A stretch of DNA of 45,072 bases from the NCBI GenBank assembly GCA_021161045.1, contig JAGHBJ010000063.1:1-45072 (forward strand), read 5' to 3'. The DNA comes from Candidatus Bathyarchaeota archaeon. GTDB lineage: Archaea > Thermoproteota > Bathyarchaeia > TCS64 > B23. The position numbers and the translations under genes were made by a program. The notes under the pieces were generated by a model, which saw nothing but the letters and a program-made list of their open reading frames with translations, was not told the origin of the DNA and searched no databases. Positions 1 through 6,232 of this stretch are shown piece by piece; within the stretch, counting starts at the first letter, position 1; the number at the start of each line of letters is the position of its first letter.

Positions 1-113
1 GCTTTGAAGGTGTTGCCTCGCTTGATGACTTTCAATTCTCTTTGTGAGATTCCCAGAAGTTGTTGGCGCACTTCGGATGCACCTTATAGCTTTCAATTCT
101 CTTTGTGAGATTC
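1..113 (-). CRISPR. CRISPR repeat-spacer units in minus orientation: repeats at 29-52 and 90-113, a full 37-nt spacer at 53-89, and a spacer at 1-28 truncated by the window edge
   Basis: The 24-nt repeat CTTTCAATTCTCTTTGTGAGATTC is identical at 29-52 and 90-113. Its reverse complement GAATCTCACAAAGAGAATTGAAAG ends in ATTGAAAG, the 8-nt crRNA tag known for crenarchaeal Cas6-processed repeats. The transcribed sense of these units is therefore the minus strand. Confidence 0.8.
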
Positions 114-230
114 ATGGCCTACTCACAAAGAGAATTGAAAGCTATAAGGTGCATCCGAAGTGCGCCAACAACTTCTGGGAATCTCACAAAGAGAATTGAA
201 AGTCATCAAGCGAGGCAACACCTTCAAAGC
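1..230. repeat. Perfect inverted repeat (palindrome): arm 1-109 is the exact reverse complement of arm 122-230, with a 12-nt centre at 110-121 (ATTCATGGCCTA)
   Basis: Base-by-base reverse complementation of 1-109 reproduces 122-230 with 109/109 matches. The left arm is cut by the window edge, so the true arm length is at least 109 bp. Confidence 0.95.
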
Positions 231-264
231 GTTGAATGGGGAATCTCACAAAGAGAGTTGAAGG
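122..264 (+). CRISPR. CRISPR array end in plus orientation. Repeats lie at 122-141 (5'-truncated, 20 of 24 nt), 179-202 (perfect) and 241-264 (degenerate terminal repeat). Spacers lie at 142-178 (37 nt) and 203-240 (38 nt).
   Basis: GAATCTCACAAAGAGAATTGAAAG is at 179-202. GAATCTCACAAAGAGAGTTGAAGG at 241-264 has 2 mismatches, which is typical of a trailer-end repeat. Spacer lengths of 37-38 nt are typical for such arrays. No leader-like sequence precedes the first, truncated repeat. Confidence 0.85.
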
Positions 265-497: not shown

Positions 498-674
498 GTG
501 TTGAGGTTGGAGGAGGAGAGGCCTAGAGGCCCGGTCTATGAATGTCTCCGCTGCGGCAGTCGAGTCGCCTACTCAGAGTTGGAGCGCTACGTCTCATTTC
601 GATGTCCCCAGTGTGGTTATCGCATCTTCAGGAAGGTTAGGCCTCCGGTTGTCAAGAGGGTGAAGGCGAGATGA
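498..674 (+). CDS. rpoP: DNA-directed RNA polymerase subunit P (Rpo12, Rpb12 homolog), a small zinc-ribbon protein
   Basis: This ORF is absent from the ORF track because it is under 60 codons with a non-ATG start. The frame ending at TGA 672-674 reads ...RPRGPVYECLRCGSRVAYSELERYVSFRCPQCGYRIFRKVRPPVVKRVKAR. It has two CxxC pairs followed by a basic tail, as in RpoP. An in-frame TAG at 477-479 bounds the 5' end. The start is GTG 498, TTG 501 or TTG 507. A TATA-like CTTTTAAT at 462-469 lies about 30 nt upstream. The stop overlaps the next ATG (ATGA at 671-674). Confidence 0.8.
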   Translation: MLRLEEERPRGPVYECLRCGSRVAYSELERYVSFRCPQCGYRIFRKVRPPVVKRVKAR

Positions 675-1249
675 CGTTGGAGGCTGAGAGCCTAGAGGAG
701 CGTCGGGCAGCCCTCATCATAAAGTATAGGGGCCTAGAGGTTGAGAATGTTGAGCGAGAGGGAAACCGGATCTACTACTATCTGAGAAAGAATGGCGATC
801 GCTATGTCATACTCTGCGTCCTAGGCGAGAAGACCATCGGCATCTCCTATATCAGAGACCTGAAGGAGAAGGTGGAGGAGCTAGGCGCCGTGAGGGGAAT
901 CCTCATCGGCGAGGGGCACTACACATACTCCGCCCGAAGCACAGTTGAGAAGCTCAACGAGGAGGCTGAACGTGAGGGGCGTGGACGCCTCATAGAGCTT
1001 ATACCCCCAAGCCTCCCAGCCTTCGACATCTTCCAGCACGAGCTGGTTCCAATACATGAGATCCTCTCAGAGGAGGAGAAGAGGGAGGTGCTGGAGCGCT
1101 ATCACGTGAAGCCCTATCAACTCCCCTGGATGAAGGCCTCAGACCCCGTGGCTATAATCCTAGGGGCGGAGCCTGGAGACATCATCAGGATAAGGAGTAG
1201 AAGCGAGACCGCCGGCGAATACATCTCATATAGATACGTGGTTGAGTAG
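671..1249 (+). CDS. rpoH: RNA polymerase subunit H (Rpo5) with a roughly 117-aa N-terminal extension, giving an Rpb5-like two-domain architecture
   Basis: C-terminal residues 118-192 (FDIFQHELVPIHEILSEEEKREVLERYHVKPYQLPWMKASDPVAIILGAEPGDIIRIRSRSETAGEYISYRYVVE) are a clear RpoH / Rpb5 C-terminal domain. The N-terminal 117 aa are in the same uninterrupted frame, with no internal ATG/GTG/TTG before the RpoH core. Confidence 0.9.
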   Translation: MTLEAESLEERRAALIIKYRGLEVENVEREGNRIYYYLRKNGDRYVILCVLGEKTIGISYIRDLKEKVEELGAVRGILIGEGHYTYSARSTVEKLNEEAEREGRGRLIELIPPSLPAFDIFQHELVPIHEILSEEEKREVLERYHVKPYQLPWMKASDPVAIILGAEPGDIIRIRSRSETAGEYISYRYVVE

Positions 1250-1457: not shown

Positions 1458-1670
1458 GCCGCCTCTAAGCTCGCTGAGTATGACGAGGGCCTCCCCCAGG
1501 GGTATGTCAAGCCTCTTCGAGAGCTCCTCAGCCGTTATCTCGGGATCCTCCAGGAGGATGTGATCCCTGACGTAAGCCTTATGATACCTATACATCGGCA
1601 GTCGGTGAACCACCTCCACGAGGATTAGCCAGAGGGGGCTTCGCTCCAGATCGTCGTCCAAGCGGCTCAC
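1413..1670 (-). CDS. Hypothetical 85-aa protein with a possible small helix-turn-helix (ITAEELSKRLDIPLGEALVILSELR) and an acidic tail
   Basis: The start overlaps the stop of the upstream ORF 1667-2179 by 4 nt, implying translational coupling. No family was recognised. Confidence 0.5.
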   Translation of the reverse strand: MSRLDDDLERSPLWLILVEVVHRLPMYRYHKAYVRDHILLEDPEITAEELSKRLDIPLGEALVILSELRGGLKESEQHEGEEDEV

Positions 1671-2179
1671 CCCCTCGAAGTAAGCCGCTCATACATCCTA
1701 TCGAAGGCCCATCGAAGACTGCTTCTAATCTCCCTAAACCTCCTCTCATCACCATAATTCCGAATGATGAGTCTAACAATTCGATCGCCATCGGTCTCAA
1801 CCTCGTAGGAGAGAACATCATCAGGGGATATCTCACCCTTAGAGGCCCTCCTCTCATCCTCCCTCCTCATATTCTCCAGAGTCCGCTCTAGGACAAAGAC
1901 TCGGAAAAGTGGGGAGGAGGCGGAGAATTCGACGTCGCCTCTAGGCTCAAAGATGATGGATCTTCCATCGCATCTCAGAGTTCCCAGGAGAATCCCGCTC
2001 TTCCCCTTCAAGGAGGTTGAGCCTCCAATCCCCTCATCAGCCCTCCTAAAGCCGAGGTGAGCTATCAATCGATCAACCTCGGCGAGGACTCTACGGAGAT
2101 CCTCCAGCTCCCCCTCTAGACGCCTAATCCTCTCCTCCAGCCCCTCCCTAATTCTGAGAAGCCTCCTAACCTCCTCCAA
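1667..2179 (-). CDS. Hypothetical 170-aa protein with an N-terminal coiled coil (EEVRRLLRIREGLEERIRRLEGELEDLRRVLAEVDRLI) and an uncharacterised C-terminal domain
   Basis: It has a TTG start at 2179 and a TATA-like TTATAA at 2212-2217 about 33-38 nt upstream on the minus strand. It has protein-like composition and forms a coupled pair with 1413-1670. Confidence 0.6.
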   Translation of the reverse strand: MEEVRRLLRIREGLEERIRRLEGELEDLRRVLAEVDRLIAHLGFRRADEGIGGSTSLKGKSGILLGTLRCDGRSIIFEPRGDVEFSASSPLFRVFVLERTLENMRREDERRASKGEISPDDVLSYEVETDGDRIVRLIIRNYGDERRFREIRSSLRWAFDRMYERLTSRG

Positions 2180-2210
2180 GGAATCCTCATGGATCAGGAG
2201 GGCTACAGCC

Positions 2211-2246
2211 CTTATAAAGCCCCTTATAATCCTCCATCTTTAAAGG
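2211..2246. promoter_or_regulatory. Divergent promoter region with three TATA-like boxes: CTTATAAAG 2211-2219, CTTATAAT 2223-2230 and CTTTAAAGG 2238-2246
   Basis: The box at 2238-2246 is about 29 nt upstream of the pyrF TTG start (2271). The box at 2211-2219 is about 33-38 nt upstream of the minus-strand start at 2179. This spacing fits archaeal leaderless transcripts. Confidence 0.4.
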
Positions 2247-2270
2247 CCCAGAGGCCTATACTCCTTAGAG

Positions 2271-3143
2271 TTGCTGGGGGAAGGCTTCGTAAAGGGATAC
2301 CTAGAGCTGAGCAGGGAGAAGGAGAGCATCCTCTGCGTAGGCCTAGACCCCGCTGTGAGGGGGATGAGGGAACGCTACCTGGTTCCATACCCCCTCATAA
2401 AGCGTTATGGCCTAGGAGAGGGAGTTAAACGCTTCTGCCTAGACATCATAGTGGCTGTTGCCCCCTACACCCCGATGATCAAGCCCAACGCTCAATACCT
2501 AACCTACCTCTTCAGCCTCGAAGACCTCAAGGAGATCGTGGAGGCCATCCATGAAGCCAACTGCCTGGCGCTCCTAGACGCGAAGCTCAGCGACATAGCT
2601 TCGACTAATCAGGCAGCCCTACACTGGATAGACGCCGCCGGCTTCGACGCCGTCACCTTCAGCCCCTACCCAGGATATGAGGGTGGATGCGACGTGATAT
2701 ACCGCTGGGCCGAGGAGAGGGATAAGGGCATCTTCACCCTCTGCCGAATGTCGAATCCAGGGGCGAGAGACATACAAGGCCTAGTAGTCGAAGATGAACC
2801 CTTATACATCAAAGTCGCCCGTGAAGCCCATAGGCGTGGAGCCAACGGCTTCGTCGTCGGATGCACGGCCATAGAGGAGCTGGGCGCTGTTAGAGAAATC
2901 ATCGGCGAGGAACCCCTAATCCTCAGCCCAGGCCTCGGCCCCCAGGGCGGAGACCCAGCGGCAGCTATAAAACTCGGCTCCAACAGCAGAGGCGAGGGCC
3001 TCATCGTCGCCTCCTCCAGATCCATAGACTACGCCTATGAAGTCAGGGGCCTTAGCTGGGAGAGGTATGCCGAGGCGGCGGCGAGAGAGGCTGAGCGGAG
3101 GAGGGATGAGCTGAATAGGCTTAGACGGCAAGTCTTCGGATGA
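2271..3143 (+). CDS. pyrF: Orotidine 5'-phosphate decarboxylase, long (type 2) form
   Basis: LCVGLDP near the N-terminus, KPN, and LLDAKLSDIASTN (the D-x-K-x-x-D-I region) match OMP decarboxylase. The 290-aa length fits the type 2 form. Confidence 0.85.
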   Translation: MLGEGFVKGYLELSREKESILCVGLDPAVRGMRERYLVPYPLIKRYGLGEGVKRFCLDIIVAVAPYTPMIKPNAQYLTYLFSLEDLKEIVEAIHEANCLALLDAKLSDIASTNQAALHWIDAAGFDAVTFSPYPGYEGGCDVIYRWAEERDKGIFTLCRMSNPGARDIQGLVVEDEPLYIKVAREAHRRGANGFVVGCTAIEELGAVREIIGEEPLILSPGLGPQGGDPAAAIKLGSNSRGEGLIVASSRSIDYAYEVRGLSWERYAEAAAREAERRRDELNRLRRQVFG

Positions 3144-3166
3144 GGATGAAGCAGCAGCCATCCTCA

Positions 3167-3189
3167 CTTTAAGGTTTAATGTTTAATAT
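3167..3189 (+). promoter_or_regulatory. TATA-like element (CTTTAAGGTTTAATGTTTAATAT) upstream of the oxidoreductase operon
   Basis: This AT-rich box lies 12-34 nt upstream of ATG 3201, in an otherwise GC-rich context. Confidence 0.4.
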
Positions 3190-3200
3190 GGGAGCGGAGT

Positions 3201-3773
3201 ATGGATTCGGAGAGACCCACGATGATCGAGGTGAGATTCCATGGGAGAGGCGGACAGGGAGCCTGGACGGCTTCACTCCTCCTCGCCCACGGAGGCCTGA
3301 AGGAGGGGAAACATGTCCAGAGCTTCCCAGCCTTCGGACCTGAGAGAGCTGGAGCACCGATAACAGCCTACACCAGGATAAGCGATGAACCCATAGACAT
3401 CCACTCAGGCATCTACGAGCCAGATCTAGTTGTGGTCCTAGACCCAACGCTCCTAGGTCCATCGGTGGTTGAAGGCCTGAAATCTGGGGGTAAGATCATC
3501 GTCAACACCGCTGAATCCCCAGAGGAGATCAGGAGACGCCTTGGATTGGGAGAGGATGTCGAGGTCTGGACCATCGACGCCACAAGCCTGGCGCTGGAAG
3601 TCCTGAAGCGGCCTATAACCAACACAGTCATGCTCGGCGCCCTACTGAAGGCTGCGGGCATAGTTAAGCTGGAGTCGCTGCTGGAGGCCGTGAGGGAGAG
3701 ATTCAAGGGGGAGGTGGGAGAGCTGAACGTCAAGGTGATAGAGGCAGCCTACAAGGAGGTGAAGAGGGGATGA
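3201..3773 (+). CDS. porG: 2-oxoacid (pyruvate/2-ketoisovalerate):ferredoxin oxidoreductase, gamma subunit
   Basis: IEVRFHGRGGQGAWTAS is the gamma-subunit signature GRGGQG. The gene order gamma-delta-alpha-beta with overlapping stops and starts is the classic archaeal POR/VOR operon. Confidence 0.9.
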   Translation: MDSERPTMIEVRFHGRGGQGAWTASLLLAHGGLKEGKHVQSFPAFGPERAGAPITAYTRISDEPIDIHSGIYEPDLVVVLDPTLLGPSVVEGLKSGGKIIVNTAESPEEIRRRLGLGEDVEVWTIDATSLALEVLKRPITNTVMLGALLKAAGIVKLESLLEAVRERFKGEVGELNVKVIEAAYKEVKRG

Positions 3774-3979
3774 AGGAGGCCAAACCTGGATGGAGGGAGC
3801 TCCCCTTCGGGGCGGTCCCCTACAAGTCATCGCTGGAGTATCACACCGGCGACTGGGGCGTTGAACGCCCAGAGTTCGACCTCGAAAAATGTACGAGGTG
3901 CACCCTCTGCCACTTCTACTGCCCAGAGGGGGCGATAGGCTTTGAGGCGGGGCATCCGGAGGTTGATCTCCGATATTGA
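3770..3979 (+). CDS. porD: 2-oxoacid:ferredoxin oxidoreductase delta subunit (2x[4Fe-4S] ferredoxin-like), apparently frameshifted, with the C-terminal 22 codons continuing in another frame to 4044
   Basis: The first cluster motif CTRCTLCHFYCP is intact. The ORF ends at TGA 3977-3979. The expected second motif KGCGICANECPVEAIRMVRKG is encoded in the -1 frame at 3976-4044, and its TGA overlaps the porA ATG at 4041. Confidence 0.8.
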   Translation: MKEAKPGWRELPFGAVPYKSSLEYHTGDWGVERPEFDLEKCTRCTLCHFYCPEGAIGFEAGHPEVDLRY

Positions 3980-4040
3980 AGGGCTGTGGGATCTGCGCGA
4001 ATGAATGCCCCGTCGAAGCCATAAGGATGGTGAGAAAGGG

Positions 4041-5255
4041 ATGAGCAGTCAGAGGCTTCTGGGTTTAAACGGTGATGAGGCTGCTGCCTATGCTATAAAG
4101 CAGGTTAACCCCGACGTGGTGGCCGCCTACCCCATCACGCCTCAGACGATCATCGTCGAGAGGTTCAGCGAATACGTCGCCGACGGCCTCGTCGACACCG
4201 AGTTCGTCGCCGTCGAATCTGAGCACAGCGCCATGAGCTGCTGTATAGGGGCCGCGGCAGCCGGAGCCAGAGCCTTCACGGCGACGGCGGCCAACGGCCT
4301 TGCGCTGATGTGGGAGATGCTCTACATCGCAGCGTCTCTGAGGTTGCCCATAGTTATGGCCGTTGCGAATCGAGCCCTCAGCGCTCCGATAAACATCCAC
4401 AACGATCACAGCGACTCGATGGGGGCGAGGGACAGCGGCTGGATACAGATATACTGCGAGAACAGCCAGGAGGTCTATGATGCCTGTATCGAAGCCTGGA
4501 GGATCGGTGAGCATCTCGACGTCCAGCTGCCGGTGATGGTCTGCCTCGACGGCTTCACCCTCAGCCACACCATGGAGAATGTCCTGACGCTCAGCGATGA
4601 GGCGGTGAGAGACTTCATCGGCGAGCGCCCCTACATAAAGGTTCAGGGACACCTCGGCGAGGCCGAGTTCAGGTTAGACCCCGAGAAACCTTTGACGATG
4701 GGCCCCCTAGACCTCTACGACTTCTACTTCGAGCATAAGATGCATCAGGTGGAGGCGATGAGGAGGGCCTTGAAGGCGATACCGGAGATCGATGAGGAGT
4801 ATAGGGAGGTCTCTGGGCGCAGCTATAGGCTGCTACATCCCTACATGATGGAGGACGCGGAGGTCGCCCTTATCGGCCTCGGGTCGACGATGGGGACGGT
4901 GCGCCACGTCGTCGATAGGCTGAGGAAGAGGGGGGTGAAGGCGGGGATGGTGAAGATGAGGGTCTTCAGACCCTTCCCAACGGAGGAGCTCCAGGAGCTC
5001 CTGAAGGATGTGGAGGTGGTCGGAGTCCTCGATAAGGCGATGAGCTTCGGCGCCCCTGGAGGCCCACTATACGAGGAGCTGAGAGCGGTCTTCTACGACG
5101 CCGATGAGAGGCCCCTCATCGTCGACTACGTCTACGGCCTTGGAGGTAGGGATACGCCGCCAAATCTCATCGAGGAGGCCTATGAGGGACTGCTGGAGGT
5201 GAAGAGGCGTGGAGAGGCGGTTGAAAAGGTCAGATTCCTGGGGGTGAGGTGGTGA
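4041..5255 (+). CDS. porA: 2-oxoacid:ferredoxin oxidoreductase alpha subunit
   Basis: MSSQRLLGLNGDEAAAYAIKQVNPDVVAAYPITPQT is a typical alpha-subunit N-terminus. The start was chosen at ATG 4041, which overlaps the delta-subunit stop as ATGA, rather than the track start at 4005. Confidence 0.9.
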   Translation: MSSQRLLGLNGDEAAAYAIKQVNPDVVAAYPITPQTIIVERFSEYVADGLVDTEFVAVESEHSAMSCCIGAAAAGARAFTATAANGLALMWEMLYIAASLRLPIVMAVANRALSAPINIHNDHSDSMGARDSGWIQIYCENSQEVYDACIEAWRIGEHLDVQLPVMVCLDGFTLSHTMENVLTLSDEAVRDFIGERPYIKVQGHLGEAEFRLDPEKPLTMGPLDLYDFYFEHKMHQVEAMRRALKAIPEIDEEYREVSGRSYRLLHPYMMEDAEVALIGLGSTMGTVRHVVDRLRKRGVKAGMVKMRVFRPFPTEELQELLKDVEVVGVLDKAMSFGAPGGPLYEELRAVFYDADERPLIVDYVYGLGGRDTPPNLIEEAYEGLLEVKRRGEAVEKVRFLGVRW

Positions 5256-6232
5256 TGTCGACGGCTATAACCCTCAAGGAGATGGTGAAGAAGCCGGATC
5301 TACTCGCATCTGGACATAGGCTATGCGCCGGATGCGCTGAGCCCATCATCGCCAGATTGGTGCTTAAAGCCAGCAGAGGCGCCATCATCGCTACTACGGC
5401 CACCGGCTGCCTAGAGGTGGCGACGACGATATTCCCCTACTCGGCGTGGCGTATACCCTGGATACATACCGCCTTCGAAAACGCCGCCGCCACGGCCAGC
5501 GGGATAGAGGCGGCCTGGAGGGCGATGAGGCGTAAGGGACGTGGCCCCCTCGCCAGATATGAGACCTTAGACATCGTCGCCTTCGCGGGGGATGGCGGAA
5601 CCTATGATATAGGCCTACAAGCCCTATCCGGAGCCTTGGAGAGGGGACATGACTTCACCTATGTCCTCCTCGACAATGAGGCCTACATGAATACGGGGAT
5701 CCAGCGCAGCGGAGGAACACCCTACTGCGCCTGGACGACGACAAGCCCCGCTGGAACGGTGATCCCTGGGAAGAGGGAGTGGAAGAAGCCCATCGATGAG
5801 ATCGTCATCGCCCATGAGATACCCTACACGGCGACGGTCAGCCCTGCATATCCCCTTGACCTGATGCAGAAGGCGCGGGCCGCCTTCGAGACGGAGGGGC
5901 CGGCCTTTATCCACGCCATCTCTCCCTGCTGCAGAGGCTGGAGATTCCCGCCGAACAAGACGATCGAGGTGGCTCGGCTGGCCGTGGAGACCTGCTTCTT
6001 CCCCCTCTACGAATGCCGAGTGGAGGATGGTAGACCAATCTACAAGCTGTCGCCTCCAAGCCTCGCTATAGCGAAGAGGCCTGAGCGTAAGAAGCCGGTG
6101 GAGGATTATCTGAAGATCCAGGGGCGATTCAGACATCTCTTCAGGCCTGAGAGGCGTGGAGACCTCATCGAACGCATCCAGAGATGGGTTGACCGCAGGT
6201 GGGAGATGCTTCTGGAGAAGGCAGGCCTATAA
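5255..6232 (+). CDS. porB: 2-oxoacid:ferredoxin oxidoreductase beta subunit (TPP-binding)
   Basis: GHRLCAGCAEP and GDGGTYDIGLQAL (TPP-binding motif GDGx...) are present. ATG 5255 overlaps the porA TGA at 5253-5255. The track start is GTG 5249. Confidence 0.9.
   Translation: MSTAITLKEMVKKPDLLASGHRLCAGCAEPIIARLVLKASRGAIIATTATGCLEVATTIFPYSAWRIPWIHTAFENAAATASGIEAAWRAMRRKGRGPLARYETLDIVAFAGDGGTYDIGLQALSGALERGHDFTYVLLDNEAYMNTGIQRSGGTPYCAWTTTSPAGTVIPGKREWKKPIDEIVIAHEIPYTATVSPAYPLDLMQKARAAFETEGPAFIHAISPCCRGWRFPPNKTIEVARLAVETCFFPLYECRVEDGRPIYKLSPPSLAIAKRPERKKPVEDYLKIQGRFRHLFRPERRGDLIERIQRWVDRRWEMLLEKAGL

What the first reader, a model, noticed from the sequence alone, without database searches (positions are those of the whole stretch)
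671..1249. Archaeal RpoH with an N-terminal domain resembling the eukaryote-specific half of Rpb5
Canonical archaeal RpoH/Rpo5 (about 75-90 aa) corresponds only to the C-terminal domain of eukaryotic Rpb5. Here the RpoH core (residues 118-192) is preceded by 117 residues in one uninterrupted frame, with no internal start codon.

The central block of the extension is RYVILCVLGEKTIGISYIRDLKEKVEELGAVRGILIGEGHYTYSARSTVEKL, followed by LIELI and then FDIFQHELVP. By eye this lines up with the Rpb5 N-terminal jaw domain as I recall it. The human sequence is [50 protein letters not shown]...ILEQF...INITEHELVP, and the yeast one is [47 protein letters not shown]. The order of hydrophobic strand, E-x-x-(I/V)G(I/V), acidic helix, GI(L/F)(I/V) strand and (T/Y)xSA(R/K/M) is the same.

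The Rpb5 N-domain is classified as a restriction-endonuclease-like fold, which this block also resembles. A full-length Rpb5-like subunit in an archaeon would bear on the origin of the eukaryotic RNA polymerase jaw module.
Basis: partly seen in the sequence, partly recalled or inferred. Interest (0 to 1): 0.75.

Follow-up and report, generated by a model that had tools for sequence, protein, structure and literature searches.

The report
Archaeal RpoH with Rpb5-like jaw domain
This archaeal gene encodes RNA polymerase subunit H carrying the extra N-terminal "jaw" domain (a dead restriction-enzyme fold) that textbooks call eukaryote-specific, and the same long form is found in Bathyarchaeia, many Asgard archaea and Hadarchaeota, so the eukaryotic Rpb5 jaw probably arose in archaea.

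Summary
ORF 671..1249 (+) encodes 192 aa: an Rpb5_C/RpoH core at residues 118-190 (E=1.6e-29), preceded by about 115 residues with no in-frame start codon between residues 75 and 139. It sits in a conserved rpoP-rpoH gene pair.

The N-terminal part is a confidently folded (pLDDT 93) αβββαβαβ PD-(D/E)XK domain. It passes Pfam's Mrr_cat threshold, but the catalytic D/(E/Q)xK residues are replaced in all 325 archaeal long forms examined.

The full-length model superposes on full-length eukaryotic Rpb5 (TM 0.76, E=3e-15), against TM 0.38 on short archaeal RpoH.

This protein's N-domain alone is not significantly similar in sequence to Rpb5_N: no PF03871 hit, and 4.7 bits. It does belong (hhalign P=1e-24) to an archaeal family whose other members hit Rpb5_N specifically (hmmsearch against PDB, E=1e-8; hhalign 97%, P=1e-10).

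Long forms occur in Bathyarchaeia, in MAGs labelled Heimdall-, Hod-, Kari-, Thor-, Wukong-, Sif-, Frey- and Jordarchaeota, and in Hadarchaeota. They never lie next to rpoB.

No searchable paper describes this; reviews state that archaeal RpoH lacks the domain.

Open question: whether these genomes also carry a short rpoH.

The parts
671..1249 (+). rpoH (long form): a 192-aa RNA polymerase subunit H/Rpo5 with the two-domain, Rpb5-like architecture
   Evidence: ORF. Pfam and NCBIfam hits. AF2 model with pLDDT 92.3 and pTM 0.85. Foldseek top hits are full-length Rpb5, TMq 0.76.
671..1021 (+). N-terminal domain plus linker (residues 1-117): an inactivated Mrr-type PD-(D/E)XK fold, H8-19 E23-30 E33-40 E43-50 H58-71 E75-80 H86-101 E108-111. 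It is the counterpart of the Rpb5 jaw domain. Conserved motifs are TIGISY.R (55-62) and G.YTYSA (82-88, in register with the eukaryotic TPSA motif).
   Evidence: Mrr_cat 22.2-24.0 bits against a cutoff of 21. Fold. Catalytic residues replaced. Family-level similarity to Rpb5_N. Invariant residues.
1022..1246 (+). C-terminal assembly domain (residues 118-192), the canonical RpoH/Rpb5_C core that docks on the largest subunit
   Evidence: PF01191 at residues 118-190, E=1.6e-29. 50-59% identity to RpoH chains of solved archaeal RNAP structures, rmsd 1.1-1.4 Å.
498..674 (+). rpoP (Rpo12/Rpb12 zinc-ribbon subunit). Its stop overlaps the rpoH start (ATGA at 671-674). Which start codon is used is uncertain.
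   Evidence: NCBIfam RpoP equivalog models at E=4.5e-11 (below their cutoffs), and Pfam Zn_ribbon_RPAB4 at 21 bits. The same 61-62-aa gene lies directly upstream of long rpoH in L047, L083, L084 and L085.

Best explanation
The gene encodes a full-length, Rpb5-like RNA polymerase subunit H.

Shown:
- The C-terminal 75 residues are the universal archaeal/eukaryotic assembly domain that docks on the largest subunit.
- The N-terminal ~110 residues are an Mrr-type PD-(D/E)XK restriction-endonuclease fold that has lost its catalytic Asp, Glu/Gln and Lys.
- The domain is strongly conserved.
- It is predicted to pack against the C-domain in the same way as the two domains of eukaryotic Rpb5.

Inferred:
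- In the polymerase the domain occupies the lower-jaw position beside the downstream DNA duplex. There it acts as a non-catalytic DNA-contact and factor-docking module, through the conserved TIGISY.R and G.YTYSA surfaces; the latter is in register with the DNA-contacting TPSA motif of Rpb5.
- The gene is co-expressed with rpoP as a two-gene RNAP-subunit operon that is detached from the rpoB-rpoA operon.
- Evolutionarily, an inactivated Mrr-like domain was fused to RpoH within archaea. This long form persists in Bathyarchaeia, most sampled Asgard lineages and Hadarchaeota, and is the likely ancestor of the eukaryotic Rpb5 jaw.
For: Domain assignment.

Structure:
- The full-length model has pLDDT 92.3 and pTM 0.85.
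- Its Foldseek top 34 hits are full-length Rpb5 chains from eukaryotic (and two ASFV) RNA polymerases, E down to 3e-15, TMq up to 0.77 over ~206-211 columns. Short archaeal RpoH reaches TMq 0.38.
- For the N-domain-only model, the best PDB hit is Rpb5 (5xog_E, E=5e-4, TMq 0.59).

Family-level sequence homology with the C-domain excluded:
- The A3 profile finds only Rpb5 N-domains in the PDB: E=1.1e-8 for fly and human, 4e-6 for Arabidopsis, 3.6e-4 for yeast.
- hhalign of A4 against eukaryotic Rpb5_N gives 97% and P=1e-10; A3 gives P=9e-12. Eukaryotic Rpb5_N against Mrr nucleases gives only P=3e-5.
- Eukaryotic Rpb5_N scores only about 15 bits on Pfam Mrr_cat.
- The window's subfamily is tied to those archaeal forms at P=1e-24 and E=1e-13 to 1e-6.

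Inactivation: the D, Q/E and K columns are Y/F/I, W/H/L and I/L/V in 325 of 325 archaeal sequences.

Selection: the N-domain is 57.6% identical on average within the subfamily.

Operon: the rpoP-rpoH pair and the downstream synteny are conserved in the window, L047, L083, L084 and L085.

Distribution: 76 of 80 GTDB loci encode long forms. They carry Bathyarchaeia, Heimdall-, Hod-, Kari-, Thor-, Wukong-, Sif-, Frey-, Jord- and Hadarchaeota labels.

Role of the Rpb5 jaw and the TPSA motif in downstream DNA contact: PMC6690254, PMC2675907, PMC551604.
Against: - The window protein's own N-domain shows no significant direct sequence similarity to Rpb5_N. It is closer to Mrr_cat nucleases.
- The N-domain fold alone matches Rpb5 and restriction enzymes (MspJI, EcoT38I) about equally well.
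- The inter-domain geometry is an AlphaFold prediction that may echo Rpb5 structures in its training set.
- There is no experimental evidence that the 22-kDa protein is made or sits in RNAP.
- Long rpoH is never next to rpoB/rpoA (0 of 76 loci), whereas short forms are (3 of 4). I could not check whether the same genomes also hold a short, operon-located rpoH. A 2026 paper lists a Bathyarchaeota Rpo5 accession two numbers away from Rpo1 (PMC13257274), which hints that some Bathyarchaeia have an operon-located copy.
- The distribution is patchy, so horizontal transfer among archaea is possible.
Confidence: 0.72

Rival explanations
1. Convergent fusion. Archaea and eukaryotes independently attached an Mrr-like PD-(D/E)XK domain to the N-terminus of RpoH/Rpb5. 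The archaeal domain would then be an analogue of the Rpb5 jaw, not its ancestor.
For: The archaeal N-domains are much closer to bacterial Mrr_cat nucleases (hhalign P=3e-21) than to eukaryotic Rpb5_N (P=1e-10). They pass Pfam's Mrr_cat threshold but never that of PF03871. The fold alone does not separate Rpb5 from restriction enzymes. Eukaryotic Rpb5_N has a ~20-35-residue insertion that the archaeal forms lack.
Against: - Domain order and linker are the same, and the predicted inter-domain packing is the same.
- Eukaryotic Rpb5_N is far closer to the archaeal RpoH N-domains (38 bits; P=1e-10 to 1e-11) than to Mrr_cat in general (about 15 bits; P=3e-5).
- No PDB nuclease is hit by the archaeal profile.
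- Both have lost the catalytic residues (PMC551604).
- The long form is present in Asgard lineages, the archaeal relatives of eukaryotes.
Confidence: 0.13
2. Paralogue. The long form is a second, specialised RpoH-like protein that coexists with a canonical short rpoH next to rpoB. It could be an alternative or regulatory subunit, or a non-RNAP protein.
For: All 76 long-form loci lack rpoB/rpoA within 6 kb, while short-form loci have the canonical rpoH-rpoB-rpoA order. The accession numbers in PMC13257274 suggest an operon-located Rpo5 in at least one Bathyarchaeote.
Against: - The C-domain passes NCBI's RpoH equivalog cutoff and keeps the conserved core motifs.
- The gene is paired with rpoP in the window's lineage.
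- No assembly contributed two loci among the 80 best, including 7 complete chromosomes. This is weak evidence, because the scan was limited to two peptide patterns and truncated.
- In Asgard genomes the conserved str/L30e cluster starts at rpoA1, without rpoH (PMC10833476). The Hel- and Thorarchaeota Rpo5 accessions in PMC13257274 are not adjacent to Rpo1.
Confidence: 0.2
3. The N-terminal domain is an active Mrr-type nuclease, for example a modification-dependent restriction activity tethered to RNAP.
For: The Pfam Mrr_cat hit is above the gathering threshold.
Against: The metal-binding Asp, the Glu/Gln and the Lys are replaced by hydrophobic or aromatic residues in the window protein and in all 325 archaeal long forms aligned. 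Lys occurs in 0 of 325. The best alternative Pfam family is explicitly an inactive REase family.
Confidence: 0.02
4. Artefact: a mis-called or frame-fused ORF that joins an upstream gene to a normal short rpoH.
For: None beyond the unusual length.
Against: There is no stop codon, and no start codon at the domain junction. The identical architecture appears in hundreds of 90%-identity clusters from independent assemblies, including complete chromosomes. Apparent stand-alone N-domains are contig-end fragments or frameshifted copies.
Confidence: 0.01

Closest known systems
Eukaryotic Rpb5 / RPABC1 (Pfam PF03871 + PF01191; e.g. PDB 1dzf, 5xog_E)
   Same: - Two-domain architecture: an N-terminal catalytically dead PD-(D/E)XK 'jaw' domain, a linker (..F.I..HELVP), and the C-terminal assembly domain.
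- The full-length predicted structure superposes at TM 0.76.
- Motifs are in register: RGY in helix 1 (in the non-Bathyarchaeia archaeal forms), (V/I)G(V/I) after β3, a hydrophobic β4, and T-x-S/A-A, which corresponds to TPSA.
   Different: - The N-domain is about 105 aa rather than about 140. It lacks the eukaryotic insertion between helix 1 and the sheet.
- No archaeal sequence reaches the PF03871 gathering score; the best is 20.7 bits against 27.
- The window's own subfamily has diverged so far that direct similarity is not significant.
- It serves one polymerase rather than three.
Canonical archaeal RpoH / Rpo5 (77-84 aa; PDB 4qiw_H, 8cro_H, 7ok0_H, 2waq_H)
   Same: The C-domain is 50-59% identical, with rmsd 1.1-1.4 Å. 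It passes the NCBIfam equivalog cutoff.
   Different: It has an extra ~115-residue N-terminal domain. The gene is not at the head of the rpoB-rpoA operon; in this lineage it is paired with rpoP. The literature describes archaeal RpoH as lacking this domain (PMC2675907, PMC6690254).
Mrr_cat type IV restriction endonuclease catalytic domain (PF04471) and inactive derivatives (NA-iREase1, PF22722)
   Same: This is the closest sequence family: hhalign P=2e-19 to 3e-21, with a Pfam hit above threshold. It has the same αβββαβ core and the same helix-1 R.GY, VG..VREL and G.FT..A motifs.
   Different: The catalytic D...(E/Q)xK is lost. The domain is fused to an RNA polymerase subunit rather than to DNA-recognition, NTPase or membrane modules.
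Rpo13 of Sulfolobales
   Same: It occupies part of the space beside Rpo5 that the Rpb5 jaw fills in eukaryotes, and it contacts downstream DNA (PMC2675907, PMC3479171). It is thus a possible functional analogue.
   Different: It is an unrelated helix-turn-helix protein encoded by a separate gene. No sequence or fold relationship was found here.

Membership tests
Archaeal RpoH/Rpo5 (NCBIfam NF007129; Pfam PF01191) | Rpb5_C / subunit-H core above the curated cutoffs | tested here: met
   PF01191 at 101.9 bits against 23.5. NF007129 at 100.3 bits against 83.
Archaeal RpoH/Rpo5 (NCBIfam NF007129; Pfam PF01191) | Single-domain protein of about 75-90 aa | tested here: not met
   192 aa with a folded 110-residue N-domain. 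Solved archaeal RpoH chains are 77-84 aa.
Archaeal RpoH/Rpo5 (NCBIfam NF007129; Pfam PF01191) | Gene heads the rpoH-rpoB-rpoA operon | tested here: not met
   No RpoB or RpoA signature motif anywhere in the 45-kb window or in any of the 76 long-form loci. The motifs are present downstream in 3 of 4 short-form loci.
Archaeal RpoH/Rpo5 (NCBIfam NF007129; Pfam PF01191) | Physically a subunit of the RNA polymerase | not testable with these tools
   Needs purified RNAP, mass spectrometry or cryo-EM. The only indirect support is the conserved rpoP-rpoH gene pair.
Eukaryotic Rpb5 (RPABC1) | Two-domain architecture: PD-(D/E)XK-like jaw domain N-terminal to the assembly domain, with Rpb5-like mutual packing | tested here: met
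   Foldseek against full-length Rpb5: E=3e-15, TMq 0.76, ~206-211 aligned columns. The packing is a prediction (pTM 0.85).
Eukaryotic Rpb5 (RPABC1) | Pfam RNA_pol_Rpb5_N (PF03871) above the gathering score | tested here: not met
   No hit at E<=10 for the window protein. The best archaeal relative scores 20.7 bits against a cutoff of 27. The model covers only the first 89 positions of the domain.
Eukaryotic Rpb5 (RPABC1) | Significant profile similarity of the N-domain to Rpb5 N-domains, with the C-domain excluded | tested here: inconclusive
   Window protein or Bathyarchaeia-only profile: not significant (E=0.13; hhalign P=0.007; 4.7 bits). Whole archaeal family: significant and specific (E=1.1e-8 in the PDB; hhalign 97%, P=1e-10).
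Eukaryotic Rpb5 (RPABC1) | TPSA motif of the jaw that contacts downstream DNA | tested here: met
   T85-Y-S-A88 aligns with TPSA or TPFA in the phmmer and hmmsearch alignments. T85 and S87 are invariant in the subfamily. DNA contact itself was not tested.
Mrr_cat restriction endonuclease domain (PF04471) | Pfam hit above the gathering score, and the αβββαβ core fold | tested here: met
   22.2 and 24.0 bits against 21. Secondary structure and Foldseek hits to MspJI and EcoT38I. hhalign P=2e-19.
Mrr_cat restriction endonuclease domain (PF04471) | Catalytic D ... (E/Q)xK residues | tested here: not met
   These are replaced by Y, L and V in the window protein, and by hydrophobic or aromatic residues in all 325 archaeal long forms.
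NA-iREase1 (PF22722, inactive REase) | Pfam hit above the gathering score | tested here: not met
   22.8-24.4 bits against a cutoff of 27 for the window protein. Several other archaeal long forms do pass, at 28-39 bits.

The most novel reading that the evidence does not exclude
The Rpb5 jaw domain is not a eukaryotic invention. It arose in archaea when an inactivated Mrr-type restriction-endonuclease domain was fused to RpoH. In this reading it is the sole RpoH of Bathyarchaeia, most Asgard lineages and Hadarchaeota, and it was inherited vertically by the first eukaryotes. The archaeal proteins are then the missing sequence intermediates that link Rpb5_N to Mrr nucleases. Some Asgard RNAPs would carry a eukaryote-like lower jaw, in some Kari/Heimdall lineages with two or three tandem copies of the domain.
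Probability: 0.55. Interest if true: 0.8.

Novelty: new variant of a known kind. Interest (0 to 1): 0.7.

Why it matters
Reviews and structural papers treat the Rpb5 jaw as eukaryote-specific and describe archaeal RpoH as lacking it. PD-(D/E)XK surveys list Rpb5_N as Eukaryota-only.

A conserved full-length form in Bathyarchaeia, Asgard archaea and Hadarchaeota would have four consequences:
- It adds one more item to the RNAP features that predate eukaryotes.
- It gives a concrete origin for the jaw, a domesticated and inactivated Mrr nuclease.
- It supplies sequence intermediates between the two families.
- It predicts that these archaeal polymerases contact downstream DNA and factors through a eukaryote-like lower jaw.

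The last point is directly testable by cryo-EM or reconstitution.

The finding also exposes an annotation gap. These proteins are tagged Mrr_cat plus Rpb5_C and simply named 'subunit H'.

Tried and rejected
- **Direct Pfam/HMMER assignment of residues 1-117 to PF03871.** No hit. phmmer of the N-domain against the PDB gave only chance hits.
- **Bathyarchaeia-only N-domain profile against the PDB.** Rpb5 came top but was not significant, at E=0.13. hhalign of the same profile against eukaryotic Rpb5_N gave P=0.007.
- **Bathyarchaeia N-domain profile against 1.84 billion representatives.** It found no eukaryotic Rpb5, only archaeal long forms and weak bacterial Mrr nucleases.
- **N-domain-only Foldseek search.** It cannot discriminate Rpb5 from restriction enzymes.
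- **Genome-collection scans with diverse alignments A4 and A5.** The scan that did run (A6) used only two peptide patterns and kept the best 80 of 224 hits. Absence of a lineage from the list is therefore not evidence of absence.
- **Organism names for distant long forms.** Cluster look-ups and contig look-ups yielded only a few names.
- **The supplement of PMC13257274.** It is not held.
- **Literature.** Ten full-text searches and targeted reading found no description of a long archaeal RpoH. The library is not exhaustive.
- **Rejected readings.** Active nuclease. ORF-fusion artefact. Internal initiation giving a short RpoH, because there is no start codon between residues 75 and 139.
Full report
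**1. The observation**

- Pfam places RNA_pol_Rpb5_C on residues 118-190 (E=1.6e-29).
- NCBI's RpoH equivalog model matches residues 117-192 above its cutoff.
- Upstream of that core lie 117 residues in the same frame.
- In-frame candidate starts are ATG1, TTG3, GTG68, GTG74, GTG140, GTG146 and ATG154. No start of any type exists between residues 75 and 139, where a normal 75-85-aa RpoH would have to begin.

The extension is not a chance open frame:

- All of the best 120 homologues listed (out of 333 with E<=0.001) are 174-193 aa and align from about residue 5. The named ones are Bathyarchaeota 'subunit H'.
- The N-part averages 57.6% pairwise identity, against 68.3% for the C-domain.
- AlphaFold2 folds it with pLDDT 93.

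The closest relatives (87-98% identity) include 'Candidatus Bathyarchaeota archaeon B23', so the window comes from a Bathyarchaeia genome.

**2. What the N-terminal part is**

The predicted topology is α(8-19) β(23-30) β(33-40) β(43-50) α(58-71) β(75-80) α(86-101) β(108-111). This is the αβββαβ PD-(D/E)XK core.

- Pfam's Mrr_cat (PF04471) is hit above its gathering score, at 22.2 and 24.0 bits against 21. The inactive-REase family NA-iREase1 falls just below its own threshold.
- Profile-profile comparison with bacterial Mrr-type nucleases gives P=2e-19.
- In that alignment the catalytic Asp, Gln/Glu and Lys of the nucleases fall on Y, L and V in the window protein.
- Across 325 archaeal long-form N-domains these three columns are Y/F/I..., W/H/L... 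and I/L/V... There is not one Lys.

The domain is therefore a catalytically dead Mrr-type fold. This is what has long been said of the yeast Rpb5 N-terminal domain: the restriction-enzyme-like structure is conserved, there are no catalytic residues, and the domain is thought to bind nucleic acid (PMC551604; classification in PMC3424549).

**3. Relationship to the Rpb5 jaw**

(a) Structure.
- The full-length model (pLDDT 92.3, pTM 0.85) finds full-length Rpb5 from eukaryotic RNA polymerases (plus the ASFV homologue) as its 34 best PDB matches. E-values go down to 3e-15 and TM (query-normalised) is 0.65-0.77 over about 206-211 columns.
- Short archaeal RpoH chains match only the C-domain, at TM 0.37-0.38.
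- The N-domain modelled alone also has Rpb5 as its best hit (5xog_E, E=5e-4, TM 0.59). However, MspJI and EcoT38I restriction enzymes score about the same, so the fold by itself is not discriminating.

(b) Sequence, this protein alone. Nothing is significant.
- No PF03871 hit.
- phmmer finds nothing.
- A Bathyarchaeia-only N-domain profile puts Drosophila Rpb5 first among 177,635 PDB sequences, in the right register, but at E=0.13.
- hhalign gives P=0.007.
- A eukaryotic Rpb5_N HMM scores the window's N-domain at 4.7 bits, no better than Mrr nucleases.

(c) Sequence, family level.
- A search of 1.84 billion representatives with the N-domain profile found only 78 proteins. Among them were 176-191-aa RpoHs of other, much more divergent lineages.
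- A profile of fourteen such N-domains, with C-domains removed, hits only Rpb5 N-domains in the PDB. E-values are 1.1e-8 (fly, human), 4e-6 (Arabidopsis) and 3.6e-4 (yeast). The next best hit is at 0.17, and no nuclease appears.
- hhalign of all archaeal N-domains against a eukaryotic Rpb5_N alignment gives 97% probability and P=1e-10 over 85 columns, from the 'RGY' helix 1 to the TPSA motif. The eukaryotic sequences were verified. The non-Bathyarchaeia subset gives P=9e-12.
- The window's subfamily is linked to those forms at P=1e-24.
- Eukaryotic Rpb5_N is much further from Mrr nucleases: hhalign P=3e-5, and about 15 bits on Pfam Mrr_cat.

The archaeal N-domains thus behave as sequence intermediates: Mrr to archaeal at 1e-21, archaeal to Rpb5_N at 1e-10, Mrr to Rpb5_N at 3e-5.

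One reason databases never tag these proteins as Rpb5_N is that the PF03871 model covers only the first 89 positions (human residues 4-94). It omits the best-conserved β4-TPSA segment.

**4. Distribution and genomic context**

A scan of one genome per GTDB species returned 80 loci. It used two peptide patterns and kept the best 80 of 224 confirmed hits.

- 76 loci encode RpoH with an N-domain HMM hit.
- By the submitters' labels these are about 50 Bathyarchaeota/Bathyarchaeia (six complete chromosomes), 15 Asgard MAGs (Heimdall-, Kari-, Hod-, Thor-, Wukong-, Sif-, Frey- and Jordarchaeota; one complete Freyarchaeota chromosome), two Hadarchaeota, one 'Thermococci' MAG and one Thermoproteota MAG.
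- The four short forms are from Nanobdellati, Hydrothermarchaeum and unnamed archaea.
- Some labels are doubtful, because near-identical sequences carry different names (L004/L005 and L018/L020).

None of the 76 long-form loci has RpoB or RpoA signature motifs within 6 kb, whereas three of the four short-form loci show the canonical rpoH-rpoB-rpoA order. This fits a published survey in which the conserved Asgard str/L30e cluster begins at rpoA1, without rpoH (PMC10833476).

In the window's own subfamily the long rpoH is preceded by a 58-62-codon rpoP (Rpo12) gene. Here the two overlap by ATGA at 671-674. The gene order radical-SAM / rpoP / rpoH / OMP decarboxylase / pyruvate-ferredoxin oxidoreductase is conserved in members only 53-63% identical, including a complete 1.5-Mb chromosome. 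A two-gene RNAP-subunit operon is indirect support that the long protein is a genuine polymerase subunit.

**5. Mechanism (inferred)**

- The C-domain should dock on the largest subunit, as in every solved archaeal and eukaryotic RNAP.
- The N-domain, packed on it as in Rpb5, should sit at the lower jaw beside the downstream duplex. The Rpb5 jaw contacts DNA there through its TPSA motif and offers a docking surface for factors (PMC6690254, PMC2675907).
- The subfamily-invariant residues T55 I56 G57 I58 Y60 R62 and G82 Y84 T85 Y86 S87 lie on the loop after β3 and on the TPSA-equivalent turn. Both are plausible DNA-facing elements.
- No nuclease activity is expected.
- In Sulfolobales the unrelated Rpo13 partly fills this space (PMC2675907).

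**6. Rivals**

- **Convergent fusion.** It is disfavoured by the identical architecture and linker, by the specific archaeal-eukaryotic similarity, which exceeds the eukaryote-Mrr similarity, and by the presence of the long form in Asgard lineages. It is not excluded, because the archaeal domain is closest to Mrr_cat.
- **Paralogue coexisting with a short operonic rpoH.** This could not be tested. A 2026 paper lists a Bathyarchaeota Rpo5 accession two away from Rpo1 (PMC13257274), so at least some Bathyarchaeia may have an operon-located copy.
- **Active nuclease and ORF artefact.** Both are rejected.

**7. Novelty**

- The PD-(D/E)XK census lists Rpb5_N as Eukaryota only (PMC3424549).
- A 2026 survey of archaeal small RNAP subunits discusses Rpo5 in Bathyarchaeota and Asgard models without mentioning a long form (PMC13257274).
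- Eme et al. 2023 do not list it among informational eukaryotic signature proteins (PMC10307638).
- Ten full-text searches found no description. The library is incomplete, so prior mention elsewhere cannot be ruled out.

Databases already hold hundreds of these sequences, named 'subunit H', some with Mrr_cat tags. IMG even gives a few of them the eukaryotic name RPABC1.

I rate this a new variant of a known kind, with interest 0.7.

Noticed in passing
window 1-262: There is a perfect 109-nt inverted repeat (1-109 against 122-230). It is built from 24-nt CRISPR-like repeats (GAATCTCACAAAGAGAATTGAAAG) and 37-38-nt spacers, and a third repeat copy lies at 239-262. It looks like the end of a CRISPR array, with a fold-back (palindromic) assembly artefact at the contig end. 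Rfam reported no CRISPR-DR family.
   Followed up: partly
window 498-674: An rpoP (Rpo12) gene lies directly upstream of rpoH, and its stop overlaps the rpoH start (ATGA). An A/T-rich TATA-like element (TTTTAAT, 463-469) lies about 30 nt upstream of the GTG at 498. This suggests a leaderless or short-leader rpoP-rpoH transcript; the promoter was not tested.
   Followed up: partly
L011 2793-4217; L016 1233-2543; L021; proteins P0153, P0187: Some Kariarchaeota/Heimdall-type RpoH genes encode 378-481-aa proteins with two or three tandem copies of the inactivated Mrr-like domain in front of the Rpb5_C core.
   Followed up: partly
L006, L007, L008, L010; protein P0196: Heimdallarchaeota-type long RpoHs (232-301 aa) carry an additional, highly charged (basic then acidic) C-terminal tail after the Rpb5_C domain. 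P0196 is also the archaeal N-domain most similar to eukaryotic Rpb5_N, at 39.9 bits.
   Followed up: no
window 956-988 (residues 96-106): An 11-residue insertion (EEAEREGRGRL) that lengthens helix α3 is present only in the window's closest clade (P0001-P0011). The other Bathyarchaeia long forms lack it.
   Followed up: no
window 1667-6232; L083, L084, L085: The gene order downstream of rpoH is conserved: an unannotated 170-198-aa ORF on the minus strand, then OMP decarboxylase, then the four-subunit 2-oxoacid:ferredoxin oxidoreductase (gamma, delta, alpha, beta). A B12-binding radical-SAM gene lies upstream of rpoP in the relatives.
   Followed up: partly
Pfam PF03871 model (not in the window): The RNA_pol_Rpb5_N model spans only 89 positions (human Rpb5 residues 4-94) and stops before the β4-TPSA segment, the part best conserved between the archaeal and eukaryotic domains. 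This probably explains why archaeal long forms are tagged Mrr_cat/NA-iREase1 and never Rpb5_N.
   Followed up: partly
proteins P0131, P0143, P0124 (relatives, not in the window): Apparent stand-alone N-domains, or N-domains with odd C-termini, look like frameshifted or chimeric gene calls rather than a separate gene family.
   Followed up: no
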